From: Eledone cirrhosa
Lineage: Eukaryota
Assembly: GCA_964016885.1 (NCBI GenBank)
Contig: OZ024743.1
Coordinates: 342,054,001-342,118,000 of the forward strand
Reading direction: 5' to 3'
DNA length: 64,000 nt
Positions within the stretch are counted from its first letter, which is position 1, and every line of letters begins with the position of its first letter. This document shows, piece by piece, positions 8,890-64,000 of the stretch. Below the pieces are notes generated by a model that saw nothing but the letters and a program-made list of their open reading frames with translations, was not told where the DNA came from and did no database searches. The translations under genes and the position numbers were made by a program.

Positions 8890-10130
8890 AACGGCCATAA
8901 CCTTGATAAATTCCGTAAAGATTTACTCAATACTTTTGCTAATCTTAACCTTAAAATTACTATAGATACGAACCATACCAATGCTAAGTTTCTTGACATT
9001 AATCTTGATATGCTTACTGCCTCTTTTAAACCTTATCATAAACCTAACGAAAATCTTAGATATATACACAAAGAGTCTTGCCATCCTGCTATAGTTTTTA
9101 AAAATCTTATTCCCAACATTAGCCGTAGGATTTCTACCTTATCTTCGTCTCTAGACATTTTTAACAAATCCCTTAATAACAGCGGCTCTACAGAACACAT
9201 TAAATATTTACCTACTCCTCCTCCTAAAACTAACCACAATAATAGGAAAAGGAAAATTATTTGGTTTACACCCCACCCCTTCTCTTTAACTATCAAAACT
9301 AATGTAGGAAGGAAATTCCTTGACCTTTTAGACAAACATTTTCCTCCTAATCATAGATATTATAAGATATTTAATAGAAATGTAGTTAAAATCAGTTTTT
9401 CTTGTTGCCCATCAATGAGGTCTAAAATCACCAATTCTAATCGTACGAGAATAAATCCGGCATGCATTTGCAGAAAGCCGGATGAATGCCCATTACTGTG
9501 CAAATGTAATACCAAATCCGTTGTATATGAGGCCAAAGTGACACCTTTAATTAACAACCAGCCAGCCAGGAGTGAACGATATGTTGGCATGATTCAGGAC
9601 AAGTTCAAAACCAGGTATTATGCACATGTCGCTTCTTTTAAACACTCTGATAAAAGAACAGCAACGGCTCTCGCAAATAAGGTGTGGGAATTCAAAGATA
9701 AAAACATCTCGTACTCTATGGATTGGTCTATTTTAGACCATTCCAGGGAATACCAAAGGGGCACAAAGAATTGTTCTTTGTGTACCACTAAAAAATTTAG
9801 GATTCTACAAAACTTGAAAGCCACTTCAACTTGCCTGAACCCCAAGACCGAGATCTTCAGATGTTGTCCTCACCTCAAATCACATCTGAGCTGTAACTGG
9901 ATTGACATTCCTACGATGACTCAACCACCTTTAACTTCTTCTCTGCTCTCTACGCTTTACATCCACTACGATTTGTATTACTTTCTGTACTTTTATATTC
10001 TTTTTCTCCCTTATCTCCCCTTATATTTAAACTTTTTCCTATGTTATTTATTTTCCTTATTCCCCCCTACTTTCTACCTTACCCTTTACATACCCAGCTT
10101 TTTTATTTATAGATATTTATTTCTGTGTGT
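8890..10130 (+). mobile_element. 5'-truncated Penelope-like element (RT C-terminus + GIY-YIG), probably Naiad-type
   Basis: FLDINLD, FKPYHKPN..LRYIHKESCHP, RKIIWFTP, CICRKPDECP (CxCx5C), SVVYEAKV...RYVGM, CSLC; followed by a pyrimidine-rich 3' UTR. Confidence 0.85.
9010..9930 (+). pseudogene. Penelope-like RT/GIY-YIG endonuclease ORF remnant
   Basis: First ~300 aa of ORF 9010-10368; the remainder is read-through into UTR and microsatellite. Confidence 0.8.
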
Positions 10131-12774: not shown

Positions 12775-12781
<7 letters not shown>

Positions 12782-13438
12782 GACGTAAAATAAGAAAATT
12801 AAAAAAATTAAAAATTAACTTACTTACTAAAATTTTCACTCCAACTAATTAGTTTCTGTAATGGGATAAAGATAGTTACGCAATGTAACCATCGAGAATT
12901 CATTACGTCATCAGGGGGTCTATTCTCAGCTAAGTCCCCAGACAATGCGCGGACACTAGGGACTCATATAAAAATAATAATTTGGTGGATGGAACAGCTA
13001 GCAGGGACTGAATTCCATAGCACTGAAAAAGTTCATTGTCTCTGGTCAAGTGGCAGATTCTAAAGATTCAATCACGTGACACTGAGGCTAGGCAGTAGGA
13101 GTGGGAGGGTATTATGACAAGAGCCTACTACCACTACGATGAATTAGCAGTGGATTTGGCAAGTTTGCTCAACAAATAAATAATTTGGAGTTAAATATAG
13201 AGAATTAGTATATTTACCAACATATGCGTAGAGATGTACACTAATGCTAGCAAATACATAAGTTATGTCATAGTACCTAGGTGGTTCTATGCAGGGGGAT
13301 GCAGAACAATTATATGAAAGACGTAAAATAAGAAAATTTTAAAAATTAAAAATTAACTTACTTACTAGGTACTATGACATAACTTATGTATTTGCTAGCA
13401 TTAGTGTACATCTGTACGCATGTGTTGGTAAATATACT

Positions 13439-13447
<9 letters not shown>
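12775..13447 (-). mobile_element. Non-coding hammerhead element: ~538-nt unit, partial direct repeat, then inversion
   Basis: 12778-12829 repeated at 13316-13367; 13198-13281 inverted at 13366-13447; (TA)n/(CT)n flanks. Confidence 0.75.
12838..12919 (-). ncRNA. Type I hammerhead ribozyme, slightly degenerate
   Basis: ACCCC-CTGATGA-cGTAATG..CATTACa-GAAA-CTAATTAG-TT^-GGAGT. Confidence 0.7.
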
Positions 13448-17296: not shown

Positions 17297-17454
17297 CAAT
17301 ATAGCAACGTACCTCCTAACTAGTGAATACACACTTACATGAAATATATAAAACCTCTTATCGAACATAGCTATGGGATTAGCTCTAGATGGGCCATGAG
17401 CATTAAGAATATGACATCCAACAAAACTGAAGGTACTCAACATACATACATACA

Positions 17455-18062
17455 TGGTGGCTGCCAACTCGTTTTCGAGTACAGCCACTACTTTATATCC
17501 ATGTAGGAGAAACTCTACCGATGCACTGAACGAGTGTGATTTTTAGTCCAGCCAGCGACTTGAAATCTCTGGTACAAAAACTACACTTGTGACAATTATA
17601 GACACATAGTGCTGGGCCCATGGTACCATGTGACGACAAGTGCAGAGAGATCTCCAGATATAAAGAAATGCCTGTGCCGTGAAGCTTTTATAGTGTGCAA
17701 AGTCACTGCACAAAGCCAGTCCCACTCTCTTAACCAAGATGATATTTACCAAAAAGAAGAACAAGTCAACATCATTGGATACCATCAGAGTTGCAGGTGT
17801 TATATCAGAGTTTTCCTTCTCCTAGAATTCTGCCTTGACAAAGGCTAACGGGTCATCTCTCCCGGTGATTTTGGATGGCAATTGACTCTTAAGAGCTCCT
17901 TTGCCCTTTGACAGGTTTTGTTTTTAGTCCTGCAGGATGTCCAAAGTCACCCTCCTCACCAAGAAATTTTGGTGGGGTTGCCAATTTAGTCGCCAACGAC
18001 CCGATCATGAGAGGGGTTGTACTGGGATACATGTTACCAGTAGTACCAACTGGTGACCTGAC
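17455..18062 (-). mobile_element. Non-autonomous RTE-derived element (5' UTR plus 3' end), copy 1
   Basis: RTE-type 5' UTR motifs (GGCGACTAA..GCAACCCC, CTAGGAGAAGGAAAACTCTG), vestigial zinc finger, (ATGT)n tail; co-terminal paralogue at 51648-52260. Confidence 0.7.
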
Positions 18063-26739: not shown

Positions 26740-29700
26740 TATATAGATATGTTTCTTTTATTTGCCACCAGGGCATCAAAAGTGGGACAAGTACAAGGGG
26801 GGAGTTTACACAAAAAGGCGTCCTCAATAAGGAGGAGGCAATAACAATATATAAAAATAATATATAACAAAAAATAAAATTTATAACTAATCCTCAATAG
26901 AGAGGAGGCGCCTTGGGGGTCGCACACACCCCCGAAAAAAGTGTGCAACCCTTTTCCTCAGGAACACAGAGAGGGGGTGCTCCCTCGTTCCTTCCTCCTT
27001 TCCACCTACAGGCTTATGTAAAGAGAAGGCCCATTCACACGGGCCATTCTCGCCACTTTCACCCACCTTTCATAAAAACGACTGGGGTGGAGCACCTCTC
27101 TCTCCATCCTGATCCTTCTTCCGAAATGATATCGGAAGAAACGGACCAGTTGTTGGCCAGAGAGAAAGGTGCCTGACCTCAGTCCTTTCAGACGCGTCCA
27201 CCATACAACTTCTTTCACCATGGCTATTACGCACAGAAACACCGCCTCTCCTTCATATTTGAAGGGGGGAGGTGGCTTGATCATTACAATAGACTCGGTG
27301 GTCAACCGGATCGGTCCCACCCTTGACATCAGTTGTTCGACATAGCCCCACAGATCGGCTACGCCCGAGCAGTGTACCAATGCGTGTGCAACGGTTTCCT
27401 CGTCGCACACGCATCTGGGACAGATCTTTTTGGCGGGGTGCCTACCCGGGCGCCCGTGTCTGTAGAGCTTTTCTCGAACGGGTAGAGCCCCTCGGTAGCA
27501 CTGCCAGGCCAGGGACTTCTGGAAGTTGTCCATAGGTCCCGGGCTGAATGTCCTACCGAACAGGCTGGCCAGTTCGTCCTCCTCCATGTCTAGGGCTTCT
27601 CCGAGGGCGTCGTCGCACCTGCTGCGTACCAGCCCTCTATAGAATGTTGCGGTGGAGTCTCCACTGATAGCCGGATCCGCCTGCCAGAGGGCGGTGAGCG
27701 CCTGGGCACACTCAGTGTGCCAGGCGCCCAGTTTTCTCTCTCTTTGCTTGACCCAGGATTTCAGCTCGGTGAGTGAGACGAGTCTGGGAAAGGTTCGTCT
27801 CACAAACGAGGCCCACACCGGTTGACCGGTGAGGAATACGTAGAGGTGCCGTAGCCTTAATGCGTGTTTACGCATCATTAGCCACGGCATCCCCAGCCCG
27901 CCTTTCGAAGGGTGTTGACAGCAGATGGATCTCCTCACCATAGGAGCCCGCCTCTTCCAAAGGATTTGTAAGAGCGCCGCTCCATCTTGGCGAGGGTTTC
28001 CCTTGGGCAGGGCACTACGGTCAGGTGGTAGTAGATGACGGACGCTATATAGGTGTTCGCCACCTCCGCCCGACCTTTCAGGGATAGTTTGCAACTGGCC
28101 CACTTCTGGGTCAGTGCAAACACCCTGTTCGTAACCTCCGCCCAGTTTTTCTCCACCTGGATGTCCGGTCCGAACCAGACCCCGAGCAACTTCACCGGGC
28201 CCTCCGTCCAGCGTCCGTCGACGCCATCGGAGGGCATCTGTCTGCCCCTCCACGTGCCGAGTTGCAAACCGATCGACTTGTCCCGGTTCAGCTTAGCTCC
28301 TGTGAACCTTTCGTACTCCTCCAGTAATGTGCCGACCGCCTCGATTTCGGAGGCCGTCGACACCATTACTGTCACGTCATCGGCGTAGGCCGACACCGCT
28401 TTCCGCAATCCCGGTTCCAAAGAGATACCCTGCAACTACTCCAACTTCCGCAGTAGTGGCTCGAGAGTCAACACATACAGAAGGGAGGAGAGAGGGCACC
28501 CTTGTCGGATGGACCGCGCGATTTTGAACGGCTCCGAGAGGTAGCCGTTCACCTTGACCCTAGAGCAGATGCCGCCGCTGTGCATAGCAGTGATCCAGCC
28601 CCTGAAAACGGGTCCGAAGCCTGCCGCCGCTAGCACCGCATCCAGGTAACCATGGTCGACCCTATCGAACGCCTTAGATTGATCCAAGTTGATCAGAGCC
28701 CCACCAAAGCCGGGTTCGTTCCCAACCCTCTCTATGATGTATCGCATGAGGTGGAGGTTGTCATGGATGGACCTGGACGGGATAGCGCATGTCTGCGCAT
28801 CTCCCACCAGGTTGCCCACGACAAGCGCCAACCTCTTTGCTAGCACCTTGGCCAAAATCTGTAACTCTGTATTTAGCAGAGTTATGGGCCTGAAGTTACT
28901 TATTTAGTCCCCCTTGTTCTCGTCCTTCCTCACTAGCGTGACTACGCCCTTGGTCACAGTACAGGGAATTATCCCGTTCTGTTGCCAGTTGCAGTAGACC
29001 GCCTCGAGGAGATCGGGGAACAAGTCCGGCATAGCTAGATATAATTCGTAAGGAAGACCATCGAGACCCGGGGATTTGTGTTTGCCGCATTGGCCCAGCA
29101 CGTCCTCTATCTCAGCGGCCGAAATCGGCTCCTCGCAGCCCTTCGCCTCCCTGTCCGAGAGACGCGGCAGGCCGTCGAGGTATGGACCGAAGTCCACATT
29201 CCCAACCGGCTCCTCGCCCCTTCCGAACAGTCGGGCAAAGTGCCTTTGAAAGGCCTCACACATCTGCTTAGGCTCAAGAATCCCCGTCCATCCAGGTCTC
29301 GCAAAGACCGGATGGTGGATTTAGTTCCACTGTTGGCCTCTGTCCCGCGGGCCCAGCTAACAGCTTTGGTCCCCTCGTTCCCTAGAGCACGTATTTTACT
29401 TCGGACAACGCAGCCTTCGTGCTTCGCGTCGAAAAACTGGCTCAAAGCCGTTCTCGACGCAAGCACTCTGGCCACGTCGCCGCTTCTAATTGCCTCTTCT
29501 ACTCTATCTATTAGCTCCCTTTCCTTCCTATTCCTATCCGCAGCTAGAACCTTACTAAATTCTATCGAGACTACTCTAATCTCTCTCTTTAGAGATACCC
29601 ACCACCTGCTGTTGACGATCGCTCCAGTCAACCGTTCCTTAACTAACGTACTAATCCGATCCCTGTAAGTTCTACTTGCCGGCAAGGACAAGTTGAGCTT

Positions 29701-29794
29701 CCAGTAACCGGGGCCCTGTCTATGCGTTCTATCAAGGTTGACCATGCAGGTCACCAACTTGTGGTCTGAATAGCCAACCATGAGCATTTCTGGA
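26740..29794 (-). mobile_element. Tx1/L1-clade LINE, 5'-truncated ORF2 with 3' UTR
   Basis: SDHKLV..GPGYWKLN, KSPGLDGLP, DQSKAFDRVDH, IRQGCPLS, SAYADDVT, CPRC..ETVAHALVHC across frameshifted ORFs; GC-rich; candidate TSD CAACT. Confidence 0.93.
27006..29787 (-). pseudogene. Tx1-like APE-RT-CCHC ORF2, frameshifted
   Basis: ORFs 29107-29787, 28904-29263, 28436-28855, 27935-28435 and 27006-28253 tile one polyprotein. Confidence 0.9.
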
Positions 29795-30530
29795 CAACTT
29801 AAAAGTCCCTGTCCTTATTTGAGGAGGAAGAACTCATAGCCATAAATTGAATTAGACTAAATTCAGCTGCTGGCCCTGATGGATTCCCAGTAATCCTCGT
29901 AAAAATATGCAAACGAACATTATCAATACCACTCTTCCAAACTTCACTTGCAAATCGTAACCTACACGGAGAGCTAAAGAAAGGCACGATATGTTATGGA
30001 TGGAGCCATGGACATCTTACCCTGATTTAAGAAAGTATTAGTAAAGAAAATTAGTATGACGTGGGCCATAGAAAATTAGCTTGCGGCCTAGCAAAGGCGT
30101 TTGAGAGCCCTATGTTAAACTGATCAACAAGTAGTCAATGACAACTGTATTAACTGCCATTAGACGCCCTCCAGTGGGATGTTACACTCACTACAGAATC
30201 AAGGTGATAATGTTCGGCGATTACTTAGCAAGATGAACGTCGGCGATCCCCCGCTACCGAGCACCCACTTAACCTTTTATAAAACGGCTTCAGAGGACCT
30301 TATTGATAGGCACTGCCTCGCTCGATCTATTAAGGACCTCTTAAATCTGAGACATCTACATGGTGTGGGTGTAGATGTTTTCAAGAAGCATCTCGACTTT
30401 CTACTAAACAACATCCCAGATGAATCCACAGCTCGTGGTGAAGTACAATTAAGGGCAGCAACGACAAATGTCCTTTTACATCAATGGCCAACCAAGGTGT
30501 GCCGTCTCTACAGTTTATGGTGTATATAAG
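29795..30530 (+). mobile_element. CR1-group LINE continuation and 3' end (RT largely deleted or replaced)
   Basis: NSAAGPDGFPVILVKIC at 29860-29910; LRHLHGVGVDVFKKHLDFLLNNIPDE..RAATTNVLLHQ at 30345-30490. Confidence 0.72.
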
Positions 30531-42015: not shown

Positions 42016-42361
42016 TGGTTCATGTCTCGATGCAACGTAATACAGAGAGTTATGTATGTTAGTTGTTTGAAACGTGATTCTAAAACGTTTACATTTTGCT
42101 GGAAATGTTGCAATGATTTGTGGCTAAAACCGGCTGCTTTCCTAGAAATCTGATTGGTTGTCCTCTATTTTCAGCCCTTATTGGCTAAATCTGCGTTTAA
42201 TTTAACTAAATACCGCCACTACGCCCCTATTTTATTTTAAATAACTATAACGTGAAAGACTTAATGGAACAGCCAAAGTTAAACCACTTCAGAAGAAAAG
42301 AACAAGAACAACTCCTAATACTACTAATTCAAATCACGTTAATCATCAGAAGAACAGAAAA

Positions 42362-44193
42362 ATGAGTTCTCAGTACTACAAGGATTTGGTTGAGGAACAA
42401 CTGAAAGACACAACATTCTATCATGAAATACCGTCAAATATAGACCACAACATCATGAAGAAGATCAACAACCTGGCTTCAAAATACCACAACTCATTTA
42501 CTGATAAGGAAAGAGACTACATCACCAATTTTGAGCCGAAACCCAGCAACCTGTATGGCCTACCGAAAGTTCACAAGTCAAAAGAAATACAACTGGCAGT
42601 AAGAGAACAAAACAGTGAGTACATTAAATTATTACACCCAAAAGACTTAAAACTTAGACCTATTATAGCTGGTCCAACATGCCCCACTCACCGTCTAAGC
42701 AATTTTGTTGACATTATTTTGAAACCACTATGTATTCACATACCCAGTTTCATCCGGGATGATATCGACTTCCTGTCCCATTTTCCCAAAACCACGGAAA
42801 CGAATTCACTTCTACTCAGTTTTGATGTGGTAAGCCTTTACACCAACATTACACATGATTTAGGAATAAAGGCAGTTAAATACTGGGTGGAAAAACATAG
42901 AGAAGTGATTCCCATTAGATTCACAGCGCCATTTATATTAGACGCAGTTAAACTTATTCTGGAAAACAACACTTTCTTCTTCAATGGAAAGAATTACATC
43001 CAAATTAGAGGCACAGCGATGGGAACGAAGTTTGCTCCCGTTTACGCGAACTCTGTAATGGGATACTTAGAACAACAACTCTACCAAGAAATAGAGGAAA
43101 ATATAGTACTGACTTTAGAAAGTACATTGAAAAATCTTGGAAGAGATACCTTGACGACTGTTTCATCATCTGGACAGAATCTCTAGATACTCTGGATGAG
43201 TTCAATATCCTCCTGAATAACCTACACCCATCTCTCCAATTCACAAAAGAGATGAGTAGGACCAAATTACCATTCCTAGATATAATGATAATCAAAAACG
43301 ACACCACCATTACCACGGATATATATTATAAACACACAGACACCCATCAATATCTGAATTTTAAGTCGTGCCATCCACCTCATACAAAACGCAACATCCC
43401 ATACTGCCTAGCCAGAAGAATTTGTACCATTGTAGAAGATACGAATACCAGGTACAAACGCCTAACAGAACTAAGATAATTTTTGCTCAAACAAAAATAC
43501 CCATCTCTACTTATAGAAAATGGCATACAGCGGGCTATAAAAATACCTATACAACAACTTAGAACAACCCAAGGAAGAAGAAACCAAGAACTGGTCATAC
43601 CATTTATAATGACACACAACCCATGTCACCAGAATATATTCAACACTGCCAAAGCAAACCTACCGATCACTGCTCAAAGTAATGAATTAAAAGGCTTAAT
43701 CACAGATCGATCTTTGACTCTTAGTAAAAGACAGCCAAAAAATTTGAAGCAACTGCTAACAAAAGCAAAGTTTGACCTTAACAACAAAGACCAATCATTC
43801 ACTGTATCTAAATGCAATGATAATCGATGCGGCACATGTCAATCCATACACGCCGGTCAATATATGAAAACAAAAACTGGAAAAATATTCCCAAATGCAA
43901 ATATGAACTGCAAAAGCAGAAATCTAATTTACTGCATTAAATGCCCGAATTGTGAAGAACTATATGTCGGTCAAACTGGAAATGCACTATCGGAACGTGC
44001 ACGGGTACACCGTCAACAAATCAGAGACCCAAATGTCCGTCAGATACCCCTAAGAGGCCACCTGGCAACATGTGGTCAGGGAATATTTATAATATTCCCA
44101 TTCTACACATTACACAGCCCAAGTGAAATCAAGAGAACAATCAAAGAAAAGAATTTTATTGATAAATTCAAACCCAAGCTAAATGAACAATAA
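42362..44193 (+). pseudogene. Penelope RT + GIY-YIG endonuclease ORF (frameshift ~43100, stop 43477-43479)
   Basis: ORFs 42362-43186, 43252-43479 and 43483-44193. Confidence 0.9.
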
Positions 44194-44567
44194 TAACGCC
44201 TAGGGGTATTACTTCTACTACCACTATGACCACGACCACTAACAACAACAACAACAACAATAATAATAATAATAAAAGTGATGTTGATGGTGATGATTAA
44301 TAGAAAATGCTATTTTCATCATTTCAAAAAGCAAAACAATTGATACGTTGGGTATGACTATTGGACGTTAGCATGCTCAACCAGCCGTGACGCTTAAACC
44401 AATCAGCTGTAGTAATTCAGTGAAACTACACACTGATTGGTCGAAATACAGTTTACAGGGCTTTGCATTCTGGAGCCACTTTTCTCTGTATAAAATGTAT
44501 AAAAGGTAGTAAATTTACCCATCTCATTACAGTTGAAAATTGCAAACTCGACTGTCACCACATATCA

Positions 44568-44606
44568 TGAACCTGAAGATTGCGAAAGCATGAAAGTACT
44601 TGTTCA
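44568..44606 (+). ncRNA. Minimal hammerhead in the Penelope 3' pseudo-LTR
   Basis: TGAAC-CTGAAGA-tTGC(gaaa)GCAt-GAAA-GTAC-TT^-GTTCA. Confidence 0.78.
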
Positions 44607-44779
44607 ATTAACACTTATAATTTAATATTCTATCATACTATTTCATTATAATACCATATTATATATATTTTAAAGGATTGTAAATAAAACGAGTAAATCA
44701 GACAAAGTTGGAATTCCTCTTATTAATATAATCTTCTATACACAATCATACACACCCGTGTGTATTTACCTATCTATAT

Positions 44780-46660: not shown

Positions 46661-46802
46661 CATATATACATATATATAAATATATCAAGATAAGCAGAAC
46701 AAGTAAAATTCAACCAATTTTTCAAAATAAATCAAAATTAATATACAATTAAAATTAATCAAAATTAAAAAATATAATATAAATATTAACCTATTCAAAT
46801 GG

Positions 46803-46880
46803 CCCTAACTGTACAGTTTCACGATGCAAAACATTAGATATCACGTGGATATTAATGGAAAAGCAACGATCATCAGAGAA
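46803..46880 (-). ncRNA. Type I hammerhead with extended stem II
   Basis: TTCT-CTGATGA-tCG.TGC...GCA.CGt-GAAA-CTGTACAG-TT^-AGGG. Confidence 0.75.
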
Positions 46881-47549
46881 GCATCTTGCTGTACTAGGGT
46901 TAAAAACCCCAGGAACGACAAAATATATGACCTCACTCCAACTAATACAGGTCTGAAAGGTCGTGAAAATGACCCGTAAATACATTGGTGTATAGTGAAG
47001 GCGGGAAATCATAGACTAGCCGTCTATGATCGCTACCAAAAAAGATTTTTAACAACTAAATAGAACGACAGGTTTTTTCTCTACATACTGGAGAATGTTG
47101 AATATATCTGAGGGTACAATGTACCCCCGGAAATATATAGTGTGTCTATGATTTAAGGTGGTTCTATGGTAATAATTTGATATACCAGAACTTAATATCA
47201 AGATAAGCAGAACAAGTAAAATTCAACCAATTTTTCAAAATAAATCAAAATTAATATACAATTAAAATTAATCAAAATTAAAAAATATAATATAAATATT
47301 TACCTATTCAAATGGCCCTAACTGTACAGTTTCACTCTCCAGTATGTAGAGAAAAATCCTGTCGTTCTATTTAGTTGCTAAAAATCTTTTTTGGTAGCGA
47401 TCATAGACGGCTAGTCTATGATTTCCCGCCTTCACTATACACCAATGTATTTACGGGTCATTTTCACGACCTTTCAGACCTGTATTAGTTGGAGTGAGGT
47501 CATATATTTTGTCGTTCCTGGGGTTTTTAACCCTAGGACAGGAAAATGC

Positions 47550-47626
47550 TTCTCTGATGATCGTTGCTTTTCCATTAATATCCACGTGATATCTAATGTT
47601 TTGCATCGTGAAACTGTACAGTTAGG
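47550..47626 (+). ncRNA. Type I hammerhead (inverted copy)
   Basis: Same motif on the + strand. Confidence 0.72.
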
Positions 47627-48520: not shown

Positions 48521-48596
48521 ATTACCTCATTACCCGAGGTTTCCCGAACAGGACGAACACAAGAGACGTCCGCATTCGTTCGTCAGATAAGGTAAT
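48521..48596 (-). ncRNA. Type I hammerhead, 10-bp stem I
   Basis: ATTACCTTAT-CTGACGA-aCGAAT..GTTCGg-GAAA-CC(tcg)GG-TA^-ATGAGGTAAT. Confidence 0.82.
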
Positions 48597-48815
48597 ATAT
48601 ATATATATATATATAAATGGAATAGAATGAAACGAAATTTCATTTCTCACTCTTAGTACGGCACTTACTTAAATGTAAATATGTATGTATGTATACGTAC
48701 ATACATATATGTATACAGACGTACAGTAGTATGTATATATATACATTCATGCACACATAACATGCATAGGGAGAATATATACTTTCAGACGTTCAACCAT
48801 CTGGCAGGAAGGTAT

Positions 48816-48858
48816 ACGATGCTGACGATAGCTAATAAGATTGAAACTAGTACATCGT
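48816..48858 (+). ncRNA. Minimal hammerhead, copy 1
   Basis: ACGATG-CTGACGA-tagctaataagatt-GAAA-CTAG-TA^-CATCGT. Confidence 0.75.
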
Positions 48859-49265
48859 TCCTGTGTCAGTGTTGAACAAAAAGGTGACGTGGTTGCCTAA
48901 ACAATGTACGGTGTAATTCAGGCTGTTTGTTTGTTTACAAAAAAACAAACCGAGCATTATAATAAATGTTCGGTAAACCGATACGTGCATATATACATGT
49001 GTGCATGTATGTATATATATACATACTACAGTACGTCTGTATACATATATGTATGTCTGTATACATACATACATACATACTTACATTTAAGTAAGTGCCG
49101 TACTAAGAGTGAGAAATGAAATTTCGTTTGATTCTATTCCATTTATCGTTTTCATTGCGCCCAGCTGACTGAACTCACTTCATATGCAAATTAAGTTGCT
49201 CAGCCGTTAATACGCATAGGGAAAGTATATACTTTCAGACGTTCAACCTTCTTGCAGGAAGGTAT

Positions 49266-49308
49266 ACGATGCTGACGATAGCTAATAAACTTGAAACTAG
49301 TACATCGT
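49266..49308 (+). ncRNA. Minimal hammerhead, copy 2
   Basis: Same motif exactly 450 nt downstream. Confidence 0.75.
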
Positions 49309-49418
49309 TCCTGTGTCAGTGTTGAACAAAAAGATGACGCGGTTGCCTAAATTCGGGCTGTTTTTTGTTTACAAACAAACAAACCGAGCATTATAATAAA
49401 TGTTCGGTAAACCGATAC

Positions 49419-49459
<41 letters not shown>

Positions 49460-49543
49460 CATGTATGTATATATATATACATACTACTGTACGTCTGTAT
49501 ACATATATGTATGTACGTATACATACATACATACATACATACC

Positions 49544-49575
<32 letters not shown>

Positions 49576-49600
49576 AATGTATAAAAATCAATACAATATA

Positions 49601-49678
49601 ATTACCTCATTACCAGAGGTTTCCCGGATGAGGCGAATACGAAATAAACGACTTCATTCGTTCGTCAGACGAGGCAAT
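49601..49678 (-). ncRNA. Type I hammerhead (family of 48521)
   Basis: ATTGCCTCGT-CTGACGA-..-GAAA-CC(tct)GG-TA^-ATGAGGTAAT. Confidence 0.8.
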
Positions 49679-50464
49679 ATAAAACATGGGCAAATACTTA
49701 AAAAAACACATCAAGAAAATCAAAAAAAGATATAGATAAATGAAATAGAAATTGAAATATATAAAAATCTATCAAGAAATATATTTAAGTGTGTGTATAT
49801 GTATGTATATACGCTCACAGATGTGCATATATGTATATGCGCACATGTATATGTATAGTGAGAAAGTGTGCGTAATTCTAAAATTTAGGGCAAATGTATC
49901 TATATGTCTGTATTATACAGACAGAAATTGTTACATCGTAAATATATGAATATGAAGGCGCGCGCATAACACGCCTGGACACTCGTACACTTAGATGCGG
50001 AAAGAAAGGAGGTAAGGGAGTGTAATAATTAAAAGAAAAGTATCAGTCTCGATATATTTATAAAAATATAATAACGATAAATTAGAAAGAAAAGATATTA
50101 GAAAGAAAAAATTAAAGAAAACAAAAAAAGAGGGGGTACATACATACACAGACACGCGTGTCTCACAAAAGAAATGTAAAAATAATTATGCTTATATACA
50201 CACGCACACTTACACTTCCATACGTTCGATACGTACATACACACACACACACACACATACTATACTCACGCATATAAACCTGTTTGCATGCCCACGTGTG
50301 AAACTGAGTAAGTAAAAAAAGGGGAAGGGGGGGGGGAGAAGAAAAAAGGAACAAAACATAAAACCGAGATGTCAAAATCACAATCACGGATATAAAGACA
50401 CGTACACATACGCATAATATATACATATACACACACACAAACACCTGTACACACACACATATAT

Positions 50465-50543
<79 letters not shown>

Positions 50544-51307
50544 CATACACGTACGCGCGCGCACACACGTAGTCACTCATGTACATATATAAAAAGTATA
50601 CACACATTAAGGCGTTCAGCCATATTGAATTGTGGATAAATAAGTACAAATATAAAATTGTAAGATAGGCTGCGCAAAAATAAAATAAAAATAAAAATGA
50701 AAAATATATCTGGCTGAAAAACACGAAAGACATGTGTAATCAGTTAGTGGAGGAAAAAGGGAAGTAAAAGAAGGGGAAGTAAAAAATAGAAAATAGGAAG
50801 TGGATCGGAGAATAAAAGGGGGGGGGGACGCGTGTCTGTGTATGTATGTACCCCCTCTTTTTTTGTTTTCTTTAATTTTTTCTTTCTAATATCTTTTCTT
50901 TCTAATTTATCGTTATTATATTTTTATAAATATATCGAGACTGATACTTTTCTTTTAATTATTACACTCCCTTACCTCTTTTCTTTCCGCATCTAAGTGT
51001 ACGAGTGTACAGGCGTGTTATGCGCGCGCCTTCATATTCATATATTTACGATGTAACCATTTCTGTCTGTATAATACAGACATATAGATACATTTGCCCT
51101 AAATTTAGAATTACGCACACTTTCTCACTATACATATACATGTGCGCATATACATATATGCACATCTGTGAGCGTATATACATATATATACACACACCTA
51201 ACTATATTTCTTGATAGGTTTTTATATATTTCAATTTCTATATAATTTATCTATATCTTTTTTTGATTTTCTTGATGTGTTTTTCTAAGTATTTGCCCAT
51301 GTTTTAT

Positions 51308-51385
51308 ATTGCCTCGACTGACGAACGAATGAAGTCGTTTATTTCGTATTCGCCTCATTCGGGAAACCTCTGGTAATGAGGTAAT
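51308..51385 (+). ncRNA. Type I hammerhead (inverted copy)
   Basis: ATTGCCTCGA-CTGACGA-aCGAATGA..TCATTCGg-GAAA-CCTCTGG-TA^-ATGAGGTAAT. Confidence 0.78.
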
Positions 51386-51485
51386 TATATTGTATTGATT
51401 TTTATACATTAAATTTTGCTCTGATACTTACATAGAGCACTCTTCATTTCTATGACCTTTTCTGTTTGCAACGGAATTTTCAATA

Positions 51486-51623
<138 letters not shown>

Positions 51624-51647
51624 CATATATATATATACATATACATA

Positions 51648-52260
51648 TGGTGGTGGCTGCCAACTCGTTTTCGAGTACGGCCACTACTTTGTATCCATGT
51701 AGGAGAACCCCTACCGATGCGCTGAATGAGTGTGACTTTTCAGTCCAGCCACCAACTTAAAAACTCTGGTACAAACACTACACTTGTGACAATTACTGAC
51801 ACATAGTACTGGGCCCATGGTACCATGTGACGACAAGTGCAGAGAGATCTCCGGATATAAAGCAATGCCTGTGCCGTGAAGCTTTTATAGTGAGCAACGG
51901 CACTGCACAAAGCCAGTCTCACTCTCTTAACCAAGATGATATTTACCAAAAAGAAGAACAAGTCAACATCATTGGATACCATCAGGGTTGCAGGTGTTAT
52001 ATCAGAGTTTTCCTTCTCCTAGAATTCTGCCTTGACAAAGGCTAAGGGGTCATCTCTCCCGGTGATTTTGGATGGCCATTGACTCTTATGAGCTCCTTTG
52101 CCCTTTGACAGGTTTTGTTTTTAGTCCTGCAGGATGTCCAAAGTCACCCTCCTCACCAAGAAACCTTGGTGGGGTTGCCAGTTTAGTCGCCAACGACTCG
52201 ACCATGAGACAGGTTGTACTGGGATACATGTTACCAGTAGCACCAACTGGTGACCTGACA
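51648..52260 (-). mobile_element. Non-autonomous RTE-derived element, copy 2
   Basis: Co-terminal with 17455-18062; encodes vestige [20 protein letters not shown]. Confidence 0.72.
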
Positions 52261-52301
52261 TACATATACATATATATATATACATATATACATATATATA
52301 T

Positions 52302-52361: not shown

Positions 52362-53370
52362 CTAAGGCGGGTAAAATTCCCGAGATCCATGGACGAGTTC
52401 TCTCCAGCGGTCTCTGTCCCTCATTATCGCTGCCATGTCCTGCGTCTCCAACACACCAGTGTCTGTCCTTAGGGCATCAACATATGTTAACCTTGGTCTT
52501 CCTCTTCTAGTGTATCCATGTAGGGGATCCCAAAGGAGTACTGAGTGCAATGTCAACTCTGGATGTCGGTGAGCATGTCTAGCTAACCTCAGTCTCCTCT
52601 GTGTCACTTTTGAGCTGACTTTTGGGATGCTCCCATACAGCTCTGCGTCTTTCATCCTCAGTGTATACTGATTAATGTTCAGAGCCATCCTCAGCATCTT
52701 CGTGTAGCACCCATCCACCATCTGAGTGAGTTTTTTGGTCAGATGAAGATCTAACAGGCTTATGGAATCCCAAAAAGGATAGTGGACCTGATATCACTGC
52801 TCTACACCAACACCAAAGCCCAAGTCATTACACCTGATGGGATGACAGAGTTCTTTGAGATAGTGGCTGGAGTGCACCAGGGAGATACATTGGCTCCCTA
52901 CCTTTTTGTCATCGTAGTGGACTATTCTATGACCTTGCACTGGAGAAACACCAGGACTCTGGCTTTACTGTAGCACCGGCTCAGAGCAGGAGAGTTAGGG
53001 CGAAAAAGGTATCGGATGCTGAATTTGCCGACGACATAGTTTTGGTGACAAATACAGTGAAGGAGGCAGAGGATTTGATGCGGGAGGTTGAGACTGTGCC
53101 GATGAGTGTGGGGCTGATAATGAATGAAACTAAAACAAAATATCTGGTAGAGAATGTTGAGAAGCCAGAGGGGATCACTAATGTAGGCGGGAAGCCGCTG
53201 GAATTGGTTGAGGACTTCCTGTATTTGGGAGCAAAGATTGGGAATACGGAAGATGATGTGGTTGAGAGGAAGAGCAAGGTCTGGGCGGCGTGCCACAGTT
53301 TGAGATCGGTGTGGAAGTCAGACCTTCGTAGAGACCTGAAAATCCGCCTCTTCATTGCTGTAGTGGAGTC

Positions 53371-53400
<30 letters not shown>
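52362..53400. mobile_element. RTE LINE with 5' inversion (3' part on - 52362-52741; RT part on + 52750-53400)
   Basis: [32 protein letters not shown] on +; LTKKLTQMVDGCYTKMLRMAL..RGRPRLTY on -. Confidence 0.88.
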
Positions 53401-53620
<220 letters not shown>

Positions 53621-53635
53621 TATATATATATAGTG

Positions 53636-53897
53636 AAGGCACATAGCTTAGTGTGGTTAGAGCATTGGGCTTGCAATCGAAAGCTTGTGAGTTCAATTCT
53701 CGAACCGGGTGATGTGTTATTTCCATGAGCAAGACATTTTATTTCACGTTGCTCCAGTTTACTCGGCTGTAGAAATGAGATGAAGAGGTACCGGTCTGCC
53801 CGCCCAGCCAGTGGGATGGCGTTATCTTATGGCTAAAACAGCATGACGTGCTGTACAAGCCGCGCCGAATGGACGCCCGACAGACTGGTCGGTCAAG

Positions 53898-57029: not shown

Positions 57030-58883
57030 TTTAATAATAATAATAATGATTTCATTTATTTGCCACAAGGGCCGACATGTAGGGGATAATACAAAGACAC
57101 AGACAGTGGGGGTTTACAATAAGGTCGAGTAAAAATGCGCAATGGCAAGAGTAATTTAACAATAAAGATATACATATTTAAAATAAACTATGCATAAATG
57201 TAACAAAGTAAATTCCACTATGGGGGGGACTCAGGGGTGACTCAGGTACCCCACCAATCCTGAACCACCCTGATCTTCAGGGAGAGCACCCCTCTCCTCA
57301 AATAAGCTACCCTATAGGCGCATGGACAGAGTAGGCCCATTCACCCCGGCCATTCTCGCTACATTCATCCACCTTTTAGCAAATGTACTGAGGCGGTAGC
57401 ACTTCTTTCTCAACCCTAACCTTCCTTTCCAGATGAAACTTGAAGAAGTTGATGAGGAAATGGCCGAAGTGAAAAGTGTGTGTCTTCAGTCCTTTCAAAC
57501 TGGTCCACCATATAACATCTTTCATAACTGCCTCCAGACCGAGGAAAACTGCCTGCTTTTCATGGCCAAAGGAACGCGGCGGGTCAATATTCACTATGGA
57601 CTGTTCGACATAACTCCACAAGTCAGTAATGCACGGACATTGAACAAGTGCATGCAGAACAGTTCGTCGCTCTGTGCGCATCTCGGGAAGGTCCGTCTGA
57701 CAGCCTTTCTGCGACTGTAGAGTTTATCCGGAACCGGCAGTGAGCCCCCCCCCCCCCCTCCCGGTAGCACTGCCAAGTGAGGGATTTCTGGAAATAGTCC
57801 ATCGTCCCCGGCTGGAAAGTAAAGTCCTGCAGAACAACTGGTCAGTTCAACTTCGTCGAGTCCCAAAGCTTCTCCGAGTGAGTCATTGCACTTCCCCCCA
57901 GTAATCCTCTATAGAACTCGAGAGTGGAAGTTCCACTGATTGCATTGCCTGCTTGGTAGAGGGCAGTGTGTGCCTGGCAACATTCCAGGTGCCAGTCACC
58001 CAGTCTTGTTCTCTTGAGGACCCAGAACTACAGCTCAGTCAAAGAAACGAGCTGCGGAAAGGCCCGTCTGATAAACGGCGACTACACCTGTTCACCGTTT
58101 AGGCAGAATATCGGAAGATATCGCAGCCTCAGAGAATGTATGCGCATCATTAGCCACGGCATGCCCAGCTCTCCGCGTAGAGGATGCTGACAGCAGATGG
58201 ACTGCCTCACCAACGGAACTTGTCCTCTCCACAAGAATTTGAAGAGGCGCCGTTCTAACTTGGCGAGGCGCGGATGAGGGCAAGGTACGACGGTCAGGCG
58301 GTAGTATGACGGACGCAATGTACGCATTCGCCACCTCCGCGCGACCTTTCAGTGATAGCTTCCTCGCAGCCTATTTTTGAGTGACACTGGCTACCCTGCT
58401 CGGTACCTCTCCCAATTCTTTTCACCTGGAGGTCTGGTCCGAACAAAACCCCGAGCAACTTTACCGGTCCGTCCGTCCAGCGCCACACCACTCTGTTTGA
58501 CGGCATGGACTTGCTTCTCCAGGTTCCGAGCTGCAAGCCCACCGACTTTTCCGGGTTAAGTTTGGCTCCTGTCAACCTTTCATATTCCTTCAATAAGGTG
58601 CCGACCACCTCGATTTCTGAGGTGTCTGACACCATCGCAGTGATGTCGTCGGCATAAGTCGACACAGACTTTCCACCTCCCTGTTCGAGCGGGATGCCGT
58701 GCAACAGCTCCAGCTTCCGCAGTAAAGGCTCGAGAGTCAATACGTACAGAAGGGTAGAGAGAGGGAACCCTTGACGGGAGAGCCGAAACGGTTCCGTGAA
58801 GTGGCCATTAACCTTGACCACCGAGCAGGTGCTGCTGTCCATTGCAGCGATCCAGCTTCTGAAGACAGTGCCGAAGCCAGGGA
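57030..58883 (-). mobile_element. Second Tx1/L1-clade LINE, 5'-truncated, with (TTA)n tail
   Basis: STYADDIT, NPEKSVGLQLGTW, SICCQHP..GELGMPWL, HALVQCP; homologous to 26740-28640. Confidence 0.9.
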
Positions 58884-59893
58884 ACGTAGGAGGGAACGTA
58901 GGAGGGCCTGCGATGGGGCACCTGGAGAGGCAGATCCATGCCATCCAGCGGACCGGTTTAATTGCTCTGGACCACCAGATGGACAAAAACTGGGACAAAG
59001 TGACGAACAGACTGACCAATTTCACCCAGCAATGGGTTGAGAGAAAGCTGTCCATGAAAAGAAGAGCGGATATGGCAAGCGCGTACATCACGTCCGTTAT
59101 CCACTACCACCTAAACGTTGTGCCTTGTCCAAGACTTGGTCTAATTGCCCTGGAGCGTTTACTGCTCCAAATCTTGAGCAATGGACGCGTTCCGATGGAC
59201 ACGTTGTCCATCTTCTGTCAACACACACTGCGTGGGGGACTGGGAATGCTGTGGAGGATAATGCACAAACATGCACTGAAGCTACGAGATATCCATCTTT
59301 TCCTTAAAGGTGAACAGGCTTTCCTCAAAGTCCCTGGCTTCGGCACTGTCTTCAGAAGCTGGATCGCTGCAATGGACAGCAGCACCTGCTCGGTGGTCAA
59401 GGTTAATGGCCACTTCACGGAACCGTTTCGGCTCTCCCGTCAAGGGTTCCCTCTCTCTACCCTTCTGTACGTATTGACTCTCGAGCCTTTACTGCGGAAG
59501 CTGGAGCTGTTGCACGGCATCCCGCTCGAACAGGGAGGTGGAAAGTCTGTGTCGACTTATGCCGACGACATCACTGCGATGGTGTCAGACACCTCAGAAA
59601 TCGAGGTGGTCGGCACCTTATTGAAGGAATATGAAAGGTTGACAGGAGCCAAACTTAACCCGGAAAAGTCGGTGGGCTTGCAGCTCGGAACCTGGAGAAG
59701 CAAGTCCATGCCGTCAAACAGCGTGGTGTGGCGCTGGACGGACGGACCGGTAAAGTTGCTCGGGGTTTTGTTCGGACCAGACCTCCAGGTGGAAAGAATT
59801 GGGAGAGGTAACGAGCAGAGTAGCCAGTGTCACTCAAAAATAGGCTGCGAGGAAGCTATCACTGAAAGGTCACGCGGAGGTGGCGAATGCGTA
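58884..59893 (+). mobile_element. Tx1 fragments: diverged piece 58900-59330 plus inverted duplicate 59331-59893 of 58320-58883
   Basis: Near-identical ~560-bp reverse-complement arms. Confidence 0.88.
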
Positions 59894-60278
59894 CATACAT
59901 ACATACACACATACATACATACATACATACATACGTACATACAAACATCATGGCTGCCCCCTCGTTGTCGAGTATGGCCATTGCACGAGGAGAAAGAAAA
60001 AAAAAAAAAGAAAAAGAAAAAATAATAATAATAATAAATAAATAAAAAGAAAATAAAAAAAAAAAATTTAAAAAATAAATAAAAAAACATATATATATAT
60101 ATATATACATACACACACACACACACACCCACACACACACTCACACATACATATACACACACATACATTAATAACAATAATAATAATAATAACAACAATA
60201 ATAATAACGACAACAACAATAATAATATACATATATATATACACACACACGCACACACACACACACACACGATAGCAA

Positions 60279-61279: not shown

Positions 61280-62620
61280 ATATTGATGTTAGAATTCGAA
61301 AAATACTAAACAACATCGGAAACTTCCACATCAACAGTGACATAGACCACCTTTTCTTGAAATGTACGCAGGGAGGCAGAGGCCTAACATCAGTCCAGAC
61401 AGCATTTGAATGTCGCATCATATTCCTCCGACAACATCTACGAACCTCGAAGCGTAGGAGCCCGTCTCTCTAGCAAGTCTATCTGCATGAAACAGATAAG
61501 ATCATGAGAGTTGGGAAGGAACTCCTCGAGAGATATACCCTGTGTGATAATCAAAAACTCACACCCAGTGAAGTCGCTCAGCAGTATCGCAGTAAATCCA
61601 TGGATGAAAAACTGCATGCTTATCAACAAATAATCATGCATGCATATGTTGCCAGGAAGCTCCAGAGTGAGAGTAATATAGATAAGGAAAGTAGTCTGTC
61701 TTGGACCAACAACCGCTATATTGGCTCCCACTTTGAAGGATACGCGTTTGCAATCCAAGAATAGGAAATTAACACGAAATACCTGATTCACAAAACAGAT
61801 AGGGATGCTGGAAAAACACCTAGATGTGATAACAAGTGCAGACTCTGCAGAATTAACATTCGAAGATGTCACCTATGTCATCAGCAGCTGTCCAAAGATG
61901 TCATCGCGGTACTATCTACCTATGAGGCCAAAACACTGTACAATGCAATCTATAGAAAAAATTGCACCGATACATTAAAAGCTACAGCAATGTGAAAGAC
62001 ATCCATATGAAGACATAATATGAAAGAGTACTGGAGGAATGTTCCAGTAAAAACCTCAATAAAATTCAGGCATAACAGACCAGATATTATGATATGGGAC
62101 AGGGAAAAGATAGCATGCACAATAGTGGAAGTTAGCTGCCCAGCAGATACCAATATAATATCAAAGATTAGCGAAAAGGAGAATATTTTACGAAGAACTG
62201 ATGAGAAATCTGCAGATACTCCACCCTGATTACACCTCCAGATCTATGCCTGTGATTATTGGGGCACTGGGGTATGTTAGTAACTGCCTCAATACAAATC
62301 TTGAGAAGCTAGGCTTCACAGGAACAGAAACAACACAACTAGTTAGGAAATTACAAGTACAATACATTAATGGAACAGTAAAAATATGTAAAACATTCCA
62401 AAAGTATTGCATCTAATAACTGCATATACACATGTACAGATACAAAATATATACACATGCACACATACAACTCAAAACATCCACATCCACACATACAGTT
62501 AAATCCATATCTACACATGCATGCAGACATGCATACATATCTACCTAGTTGATGTTGTGTAAATTCCAATGAGAGTCTTGCGTCTATGTTAGAAACCGAC
62601 TCTCTCTCTATTGGTAAAAA
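61280..62620 (+). mobile_element. R4/Dong-like RLE LINE 3' part, frameshifted
   Basis: DIDHLFLKCTQGGRGL, HFEGYAFAIQE, CRLC, HNRPDIMIWD..IVEVSCP, PVIIGALG. Confidence 0.85.
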
Positions 62621-62679
62621 TTTGTGAAATTATTAAACCAGAAGAACATACATACACACATAGATACATACATAAAATG

Positions 62680-63220
62680 CAAGCATAAAATACCAGATAT
62701 AATGATATGGGATAGGGAAAAGAAGGCATACACAGTAGTGAAAATTAGCTTCTCAGCAGATGCCAATATAATATCAAAGATTAGCGAAAAGGAGAATATC
62801 TATCCAGAATTAATGAGAAATGTGCAGATACTCCACCCTGACTATACCTTCAGATTTATGCCTGTGATTATTGGGGCACTGGGATATGTTAGTAACTGCC
62901 TCAGTACAAATCTTGAGAAGCTGGGCTTCACAGGAACAGAAAGAACACGACTAGTTAGGCAATTACAAGTACAATCCAATAATGGAACAATGAAATTATG
63001 TAAAACATTCCAAAAGTTCTGCATCTGTTAACAGCATATGTACATATACAGATGCAAAGCATGTGCACATGCACACATATAACTCAAAACATCCGCATCC
63101 ACACATACAATCATATCCATACCTGCACACACATGCATGCATTCATACATATCTACCTAGTTGGTGTTGTGTACATCCCAAAGAGAAAGTCTTGTAAGTA
63201 TGTTAGAAACCGACTCTCAT
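62680..63220 (+). mobile_element. Diverged second copy of the RLE domain plus 3' UTR
   Basis: PDIMIWDREKK..PVIIGALGYVSNCL repeats 62075-62600. Confidence 0.85.
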
Positions 63221-63359
63221 TCTCTCTCTGTGTCTCTCTATCTATCTCTCTATCTCTCTCTTGCTCTCCCTCTCTCTCTCCTTCTCTCTCTCTCTATCTC
63301 TCTCTCTCTCTGTTGGTAAAACATTATAAAATTATAAAACCAGAATTACATACATGTCA

Positions 63360-64000
63360 CTGAGGCCCCTTTCCAGAAAGACATAGAGTCCTGCTGGAGA
63401 ACAATATGGGGTAAACGAAAGATTTAAACCAAGATACAATGTGATGTGGCTAAAACAAATCCAAAAGAACTATTGCTCCTACACTGCAACAAAAACATGC
63501 GAAATGAATGAGGATACCCTTGAGACTGTGATAGAAAAACTCCAAGATGAGAAAACACCAGGAAGACACATGATTGTTGGCTACCGGTGCAAAGAACTAA
63601 TATTCTATCCCATGTATTTTATCGACCTCTACCAGCATGTTCTCACGGGAGATGCACATATACCAGAATGGTTGACATTAGCACAAACTATATTGGTCCC
63701 CAAGAACAAAGACACCCACTTGGCAAGAAACTATCGACCCATTGCATGCCAGATCCTGATGTATAAGATGTGTACTGCCTGCCAGAACCTATTTCCCCAA
63801 TGTCACTGCAACAGTAATCAGATCATTACAGATGAAGAAGAAACTGGAAAGAAAGGTGTTTGGGGGTGTGCTGAACACCTCCTATTTAAGAAAATTGCGA
63901 TATCGGAGGTGTGACAACCTATGAGGTATATGGCTACAGTCTGGCTGGACTACTGGAAAGCATTTGAATCTGTTCCCCACTTTCTGATGATAGAAGCCCC
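63360..64000 (+). mobile_element. R4/Dong-like RT N-terminal fragment, runs off window
   Basis: KTPG, IPEWLTLAQTILVPK..NYRPIAC, GCAEHLL, WLDYWKAFESVPH. Confidence 0.85.

What the first reader, a model, noticed from the sequence alone, without database searches (positions are those of the whole stretch)
48616..49545. Tandem hammerheads exactly 450 nt apart delimiting an ORF-less monomer
Two same-strand hammerheads (48816-48858, 49266-49308) lie in a head-to-tail repeat, so double cleavage would release a 450-nt monomer. The short palindromic stem III (CTAG) fits dimer-dependent cleavage. The copies carry different stem II changes (agc..gat vs agc..act), implying an ancestral agc/gct pair. A 5' inverted segment precedes them. 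This is the architecture expected of a non-LTR retrozyme reverse-transcribed from a circular or multimeric RNA (inference).
Basis: partly seen in the sequence, partly recalled or inferred. Interest (0 to 1): 0.82.

Follow-up and report, generated by a model that had tools for sequence, protein, structure and literature searches.

The report
Penelope-pasted hammerhead retrozyme, two-armed copy
This is one aged copy of a roughly 450-base non-coding repeat that carries a predicted self-cutting RNA motif and occurs thousands of times in this animal genome; its two fixed ends and mirror-image arms match the footprint of Penelope-type jumping genes, whose enzyme likely copied it from a small RNA that is probably a circle.

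Summary
Observation confirmed. Two type I hammerheads lie exactly 450 nt apart, each with one stem II mismatch; the family majority is AGCT/AGCT. The unit is not single-copy: 3,224 exact core matches and 15,100 exact matches to the 25 nt after the cut site, controls 0. No consistent ORF is attached.

Copies are not freely permuted. Their 3' ends fall at two fixed sites about 60 nt apart, next to (TA)n. In 48 of 61 head-to-head pairs, including this one, one arm has the long end and one the short. An intact Penelope-like element (PLE) in the same genome shows the same layout.

In the youngest subfamily, units within an insertion differ by 0.4% against 4.4% between insertions, with no scar at the cut site. 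That favours rolling copying of one circular monomer, but no RNA data were available. This locus is decayed, and the partner PLE was not found.

Verdict: new member of the metazoan non-LTR retrozymes. The scan noted this architecture before on other DNA of this genome (310-, 422- and 467-nt units).

The parts
48596..48614 (.). (TA)n target tract, left flank
   Evidence: sequence; 172 of 202 family arm ends have (TA)4 or more nearby
48613..48758 (-). Inverted arm: unit positions 145-294, ending at the long 3' end (carries the tail)
   Evidence: blastn 93%; alignment; classed long
48758..49542 (+). Direct arm: last 95 nt of a unit, one full unit, then 232 nt ending at the short 3' end
48791..48877 (+). 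Hammerhead 1 with extended stem I (minimal motif 48816-48858); predicted cut after 48852; stem II mismatch at 48840
48853..49302 (+). 450-nt cut-to-cut monomer, 35.6% GC, no ORF of 120 aa or more; folds as a circle at -117.1 kcal/mol, z -4.6
49084..49146 (+). Optional tail between the short and long 3' end sites, about 57-63 nt
   Evidence: loose ends turning into (TA)n at 49146 in 29-38 contigs per run
49090..49104 (+). Small hairpin 1 (AGTA, 7-nt loop with GCC, TACT) starting 0-6 nt past the short end; candidate RT-positioning signal (inferred)
   Evidence: stem constant while loop positions 1-3 and 7 vary among the commoner variants
49153..49167 (+). Small hairpin 2 (7-nt loop with GCC) starting about 6 nt past the long end; decayed in this copy
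49184..49191 (+). ATGCAAAT octamer, 119 nt before the cut; possible internal promoter element (untested; the name octamer is recalled)
   Evidence: exact in 148 of 163 passes and in all 4 subfamily majorities
49241..49327 (+). Hammerhead 2 with extended stem I (minimal motif 49266-49308); predicted cut after 49302; stem II mismatch at 49289
49543..49571 (.). (TA)n target tract, right flank
   Evidence: sequence

Best explanation
This is a decayed two-armed insertion of an abundant, ORF-less hammerhead repeat (a non-LTR retrozyme) that was likely written into a (TA)n tract by a Penelope-like element's enzyme, probably copying a circular RNA monomer. Steps: (1) tandem source copies are transcribed, possibly from an internal promoter (inferred); (2) two hammerheads pair through the palindromic ACUAGU stem III and cut, releasing monomers (inferred from structure and published analogues); (3) monomers are ligated to circles (inferred from PMC7229834); (4) a PLE RT-endonuclease cuts (TA)n DNA and primes from both strands, one arm at each of two fixed internal sites about 60 nt apart (the end geometry is shown; the enzyme is inferred); (5) each RT runs through the ribozyme site for a variable distance, giving 5'-truncated arms of a fraction of a unit up to nine passes joined head to head (shown). 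PLE mobilisation alone I put at about 0.9, the circular monomer template at about 0.65.
For: Copy number: 3,224 and 15,100 exact matches, controls 0. Arm ends: 108 short and 94 long of 202, 172 next to (TA)n; 48 of 61 divergent pairs are long+short against 49% expected, p=2.4e-6. An intact 728-aa PLE is two-armed with one long and one short end, and its family shows two ends about 50 nt apart (12 long, 8 short of 20, read by eye). PMC8557442 lists partial tandems, an inverted 5' copy, a one-ended tail and microsatellite bias as PLE features. PMC11167929 shows a PLE protein cutting and extending both strands and starting RT at two internal sites that define the tail. Youngest subfamily: median distance 0.39% within insertions (54 pairs) against 4.4% between (1,377 pairs), and the two arms share private variants. 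Only 2 indels lie within 6 nt of the cut in 184 passes. All 30 loci chosen only on post-cut sequence run through the cut. Ribozyme constraint: 32 of 275 columns differ among four subfamily majorities, but only 3 of the 43 hammerhead columns, all tolerated (A-U to G.U, N7, loop II). 99% of 675 stem cells pair in 27 hand-picked, least-diverged copies.
Against: No RNA evidence of any kind. No partner PLE shares sequence with the unit. The hammerhead stems show no two-sided compensatory change. In the window's own older subfamily, within- and between-insertion distances are alike (4.8% vs 5.4%), so this locus itself cannot show single-template copying. One six-pass array has a partly alternating pattern (484/502/484/494/456 nt, with a linked A/G), which fits a dimer template or later DNA duplication. 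In PMC11167929 uncleaved RNA was the dominant substrate in vitro, and ribozyme mutants inserted normally. Li et al. 2026 saw cleavage in only 1 of 9 retrozyme dimers.
Confidence: 0.62

Rival explanations
1. Same PLE mobilisation, but the template is an uncleaved linear multimer read from tandem source arrays. The hammerhead is a slow or protein-assisted passenger, and arrays stay uniform by DNA-level duplication or by RT re-priming on the same RNA.
For: 205 of 210 passes run through the cut site (partly selected for that). Uncleaved RNA is the main substrate of an anole PLE in vitro. One array is partly period-2. The weak U.U base of stem II and the dimer-dependent stem III predict slow cleavage.
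Against: Linear copying cannot make arrays longer than their source, yet arrays of up to nine passes exist and are uniform for insertion-specific variants, so some monomer-to-multimer step is needed. The ribozyme is conserved across subfamilies. 5 of 13 arm 5' ends within 36 nt of the cut fall at the cut itself (hand count; p=0.04; post hoc and weak), which hints at real cleavage.
Confidence: 0.27
2. The unit is only the pseudo-LTR of an autonomous PLE, and the copies are 5'-truncated insertions of that element.
For: All end features are PLE features. Family B next to it is such a case: its hammerhead is the 3' repeat of a longer element with an RT-thumb/GIY-YIG-type ORF upstream.
Against: Upstream of a unit lies another unit, not an ORF; arrays repeat directly. 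PLE protein fragments abut an arm at only two insertions (L025, L068), at different unit and protein positions (132 overlapping loci tested with proteins of two PLE families, L153-L184 not tested).
Confidence: 0.05
3. A local tandem duplication or satellite, with a chance or dead hammerhead-like motif.
For: Both window copies are mutated in stem II, and Rfam gives no hit.
Against: Thousands of dispersed copies on many contigs; stereotyped ends; 149 of 197 passes have an intact motif (sample partly selected for intact cores).
Confidence: 0.01

Closest known systems
Metazoan non-LTR retrozymes (Cervera and de la Pena 2020, PMC7229834; parts 2-4 of 6 read, supplement unreadable)
   Same: Short ORF-less AT-rich tandem unit with one type I hammerhead and a self-paired predicted circle. 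Stem III is one pair capped by a palindromic tetraloop, as in axolotl HHR_Amex1; the base of stem II is U.U, as in HHR_Amex2.
   Different: Units are 426-538 nt and contain a variable TA microsatellite. Most copies are sub-dimer, two-armed insertions with fixed long and short ends. That paper proposes PLE mobilisation but, in the parts read, shows no such end signatures. Expression and cleavage are untested here.
Li, Clavereau and Pollet 2026 (bioRxiv 10.64898/2026.07.22.740005; parts 1-3 of 5 read)
   Same: [quoted passage not shown]
   Different: Their evidence is co-occurrence and pLTR homology, mainly in vertebrates, and they favour local DNA-level array growth. Here no homologous pLTR was found, but the insertion geometry and within-insertion uniformity point to arrays made at insertion.
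EN+ Penelope-like elements (PMC8557442, passages read; PMC11167929, parts 1-2 of 4 read; PMC4209133, parts 1-2 of 4 read)
   Same: Partial tandems, inverted 5'-truncated arm, tail at one end, (TA)n targets, 5' truncation, type I hammerhead with palindromic stem III.
   Different: No RT or GIY-YIG ORF. The tail is about 60 nt rather than 30-40. The hammerhead has a long stem I with internal loops and an RNnA loop II, closer to canonical than to minimal PLE motifs.
Non-autonomous Chlamys elements such as MRC1 (PMC8557442, passage read)
   Same: Non-autonomous PLEs forming pLTRs and multicopy head-to-tail insertions.
   Different: They resemble an autonomous family at the 3' end, and most Chlamys lack canonical hammerheads. 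Here the hammerhead is conserved and no partner was found.

Membership tests
Metazoan non-LTR retrozyme | One type I hammerhead per unit | tested here: met
   149 of 197 passes intact (partly selected sample)
Metazoan non-LTR retrozyme | [quoted passage not shown] | tested here: met
   units 426-538 nt, arrays up to nine passes; 27 of 121 sampled insertions have two or more same-strand cut sites
Metazoan non-LTR retrozyme | No protein coding; GC below 50% | tested here: met
   no ORF of 120 aa or more over the unit; GC 35.6%
Metazoan non-LTR retrozyme | Highly self-paired monomer | tested here: met
   circular MFE z -4.6 against 40 shuffles (part of this comes from self-complementary TA/TACA tracts); two-sided changes at 7 of 76 predicted pairs, 6 of them in one downstream hairpin
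Metazoan non-LTR retrozyme | No LTR, primer binding site or polypurine tract | not tested
   ends are ragged at 5' and fixed at 3', unlike LTRs, but no PBS or PPT search was run
Metazoan non-LTR retrozyme | Target-site duplication over 4 bp when present | tested here: inconclusive
   flanks are (TA)n, so a duplication cannot be told
Metazoan non-LTR retrozyme | Self-cleavage, and accumulation as linear and circular monomer RNA | not testable with these tools
   no RNA holder listed
Autonomous EN+ Penelope-like element | RT plus GIY-YIG ORF | tested here: not met
Autonomous EN+ Penelope-like element | Partial tandem, inverted 5'-truncated copy, tail at one end, microsatellite target | tested here: met
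   48 of 61 pairs long+short; 172 of 202 ends near (TA)n
Non-autonomous derivative of a named PLE family | Sequence homology to an autonomous pLTR or 3' end | tested here: inconclusive
   none to the three PLE types examined; the genome holds many more (30,357 and 56,006 first-look candidates)
Canonical type I hammerhead | Conserved core CUGANGA, GAAA, UH | tested here: met
Canonical type I hammerhead | G10.1-C11.1 pair | tested here: not met
   U.U in 190 of 191 and 194 of 194 passes; the same variant cleaves in axolotl HHR_Amex2 (PMC7229834)
Canonical type I hammerhead | Loop II of RNnA type facing a U in loop I | tested here: met
   loop II AATA 121, AACA 72, AAGA 7 of 202; stem I bulge TAT 160, TAA 31 of 197; motif from PMC2632901 (passages); the contact itself is not shown

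The most novel reading that the evidence does not exclude
The family is a still-active circular-RNA parasite of a PLE. A dimeric PLE protein docks on two small GCC-loop hairpins about 60 nt apart on one RNA circle, primes one DNA strand at each, and both RTs roll round the circle, so every insertion records two simultaneous rolling-circle reverse transcriptions. The unit would supply its own promoter, ribozyme and RT-docking sites, giving a minimal natural substrate for testing circular-template TPRT.
Probability: 0.3. Interest if true: 0.8.

Novelty: new member of a known kind. Interest (0 to 1): 0.5.

Why it matters
Which enzyme mobilises animal retrozymes, and whether it copies an RNA circle, is proposed but not shown in the papers read (PMC7229834; Li et al. 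2026). This family gives countable genomic footprints: long+short paired arms shared with an intact PLE in the same genome, and uniform young arrays with a scar-free junction. It also provides near-identical young copies and intact PLE ORFs with which to test the step in vitro. No description of a cephalopod hammerhead retrozyme appeared in searches, but the supplement of PMC7229834 could not be read, and repeat databases were not available. The class is known, and the scan has already noted this architecture on other DNA of this genome, which limits the surprise.

Tried and rejected
Rfam: only TA-repeat miRNA-type matches, all below gathering score, and no hammerhead.

RNA expression: no RNA holder listed. 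The three listed runs are contigs of one sample, of unrecorded kind, possibly the assembly source; they were used only for allele counts and end positions.

RNA-editing scars (lead from note e1-8803865): no A>G excess over T>C on the sense strand. Shared variants 21 vs 26, single-pass variants 24 vs 33, solo positions 69 vs 84, all p>0.4. The test is crude and confounded by subfamily substructure.

Heterodimer template (the window's 15-nt deletion recurring elsewhere): not seen in 56 passes.

Partner PLE: no homology to the Neptune/Nematis-type family at 42251-44193, to the family at 8845-9900, or to family B. No GCC-loop hairpin tail outside this family in 240 stored sequences. A look-alike hairpin at 51684 belongs to an unrelated 610-nt repeat.

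Free circular permutation of copies: rejected, because 3' ends are fixed.

Per-position mutation rates in the hammerhead were not used, because the loci were selected on those bases.

Dimer cofold of two majority-type motifs did not return the ACUAGU duplex as minimum-energy structure, so dimer cleavage rests on the palindrome and the literature.

A look-up of earlier findings by sequence returned nothing. Two papers (Lunse 2017; Coats 1994) were not held and are known only by recall or citation.

Full report
1. Observation. The window is G000:C4:342054001-342118000 of a 3.0-Gb animal genome rich in TA repeats; a cephalopod is my guess and was not tested. A descriptor scan finds both hammerheads at the stated coordinates, with cuts after 48852 and 49302, 450 nt apart. 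The window has 6 cores with stem I of 6 bp or more, against 0-1 in each of 20 shuffles. The element is an inverted arm (48613-48758, unit positions 145-294) joined to a direct arm (48758-49542: 95 nt, one full unit, 232 nt), between two (TA)n tracts. Rfam does not score the motif.

2. The ribozyme. Majority-type copies fold stem II (z -2.7 and -2.9); the window copies do not (z -1.5 and -1.6). Stem I extends to 21 bp in four helices; across stems I and II, 99% of 675 cells pair in 27 hand-picked, least-diverged copies, but all variation is one-sided, so there is no covariation proof. Four subfamily majorities differ at 32 of 275 columns. Only 3 of these lie in the 43-nt hammerhead: an A-U to G.U change, the free N7, and loop II. 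The U.U base of stem II and the one-pair stem III with a palindromic tetraloop each occur in axolotl retrozymes that cleave better as dimers (PMC7229834). Loop II fits the RNnA motif. Cleavage itself is inferred.

3. The family. There are 3,224 exact matches to the 37-nt majority core and 15,100 to the 25 nt after the cut, with reversed controls 0. From 128 stored loci I kept 210 distinct cut-site passes in 121 insertions; the sample is top BLAST hits plus the first matches along C1, not random. Subfamilies range from old (the window's, median 2.6% from its majority) to very young. Units are 426-538 nt, varying mainly in an internal TA tract. Upstream of a unit lies another unit, an inverted arm or flank. 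PLE protein fragments abut an arm at two insertions only, at different positions (L153-L184 not tested).

4. The ends point to the class of enzyme. Arm 3' ends fall at two sites about 60 nt apart: 108 short and 94 long of 202, with 172 next to (TA)n. Of 61 divergent pairs, 48 are long+short, 10 short+short and 3 long+long (expected mixed 49%, p=2.4e-6). The classifier is imperfect: one pair is probably two insertions, and L048 was called short+short against BLAST. The window copy is long+short. PLEs are described with partial tandems, an inverted 5'-truncated copy, a tail often at one end only, and microsatellite bias (PMC8557442, passages). A purified PLE protein cuts and extends both strands of AT-rich DNA and starts RT at two internal sites that define the tail (PMC11167929). 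In this genome an intact 728-aa PLE is two-armed with one long and one short end. Mobilisation by a PLE is thus well supported, but no partner family was identified. A 7-nt-loop hairpin with GCC starts a few bases past each end; in hairpin 1 the stem is constant while the loop varies. I looked for this after reading note e1-9535582, and it is a lead only.

5. Circle or linear multimer. In the youngest subfamily, passes within an insertion differ by a median 0.39% against 4.4% between insertions, and the two arms share private variants. Over all subfamilies, tandem neighbours share 7.4 derived variants against 0.8 between loci (mostly subfamily markers). Arrays reach nine passes. Only 2 of 184 passes have an indel within 6 nt of the cut, which argues against sloppy end-to-end jumping. 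All 30 loci picked on post-cut sequence alone run through the cut. A monomer-to-multimer step is therefore needed, and rolling copying of a ligated monomer is the simplest. Against it: no RNA data; one array is partly period-2; the older subfamilies, including this locus, give no resolution; and uncleaved RNA was the main substrate in vitro. Five arm 5' ends sit at the cut, among 13 within 36 nt (hand count, after setting aside rows that were point changes or internal deletions; p=0.04), a weak post hoc hint that some templates were cleaved. No editing signature was seen.

6. Comparison. By sequence it meets the definition of a metazoan non-LTR retrozyme (PMC7229834); the functional criteria could not be tested. 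It works like a non-autonomous PLE but is not an autonomous one. Li et al. 2026 already argue for the retrozyme-PLE link. Searches showed no cephalopod retrozyme description; the supplement of PMC7229834 was unreadable and may bear on this. Earlier notes of this scan report the same two-armed architecture for 310-, 422- and 467-nt units. The last two may be subfamilies of this family, but the look-up by sequence was empty. I take the word two-armed from those notes; they are not independent support.

7. Verdict. Real, and a new member of a known kind. This locus is an old, probably inactive copy of a family that is young elsewhere. Interest 0.5.

Noticed in passing
window 49678-49601 (-), 51308-51386 (+), 48596-48521 (-): A second hammerhead family (A.G at the base of a long stem II, 10-bp stem I) flanks the finding. 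49571-50159 and 50828-51487 form a two-armed short+long insertion, 99% identical to at least 39 other copies; in L217/L218 it is the 3' repeat of a PLE-type element with an ORF 65% identical to the window's 8845-9900 protein. The copy at 48596 is older (about 80% identical).
   Followed up: partly
window 42251-44770 (+); L219: PLE with RT, a CX4CX2C linker and GIY-YIG (Neptune/Nematis type by PMC8557442), hammerhead at 44568-44606 with U.U and palindromic GTAC. Many young copies with 775-aa open frames, often head to head; L219 also has an upstream 449-aa ORF.
   Followed up: partly
window 8845-9900 (+): 3' part of another abundant PLE-type family (56,006 first-look candidates); no Pfam hit.
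   Followed up: partly
window 46682-47626 and 12775-13447: Two more ORF-less elements with direct plus inverted layout (513- and 538-nt units), already noted by other reports of the scan.
   Followed up: no
window 11556-11486 (-) and 11126-11046 (-): Two further hammerhead-like motifs; relatives of the first recur in L110, L114 and L121.
   Followed up: no
window 51651-52262 and 17450-18060: Two copies of a 610-nt repeat with fixed ends and an (ACAT)n tail on +, 2,690 candidates genome-wide; SINE-like, with a structured 5' end.
   Followed up: partly
L184 (G000:C1:5539900-5544400): Young six-pass array with unit lengths 484/502/484/494/456 and a linked alternating base: possible dimer template or two-unit duplication.
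   Followed up: partly
L068:2111-2128 and L025:2033-2058: Retrozyme arms joined directly to mid-ORF PLE fragments; possible template-switch chimeras or nested insertions.
   Followed up: partly
window 27006-29814 (-), 52362-53826 (-), 58294-60025, 62618-63914: Broken LINE-type RT fragments of several kinds (names by resemblance, recalled).
   Followed up: no
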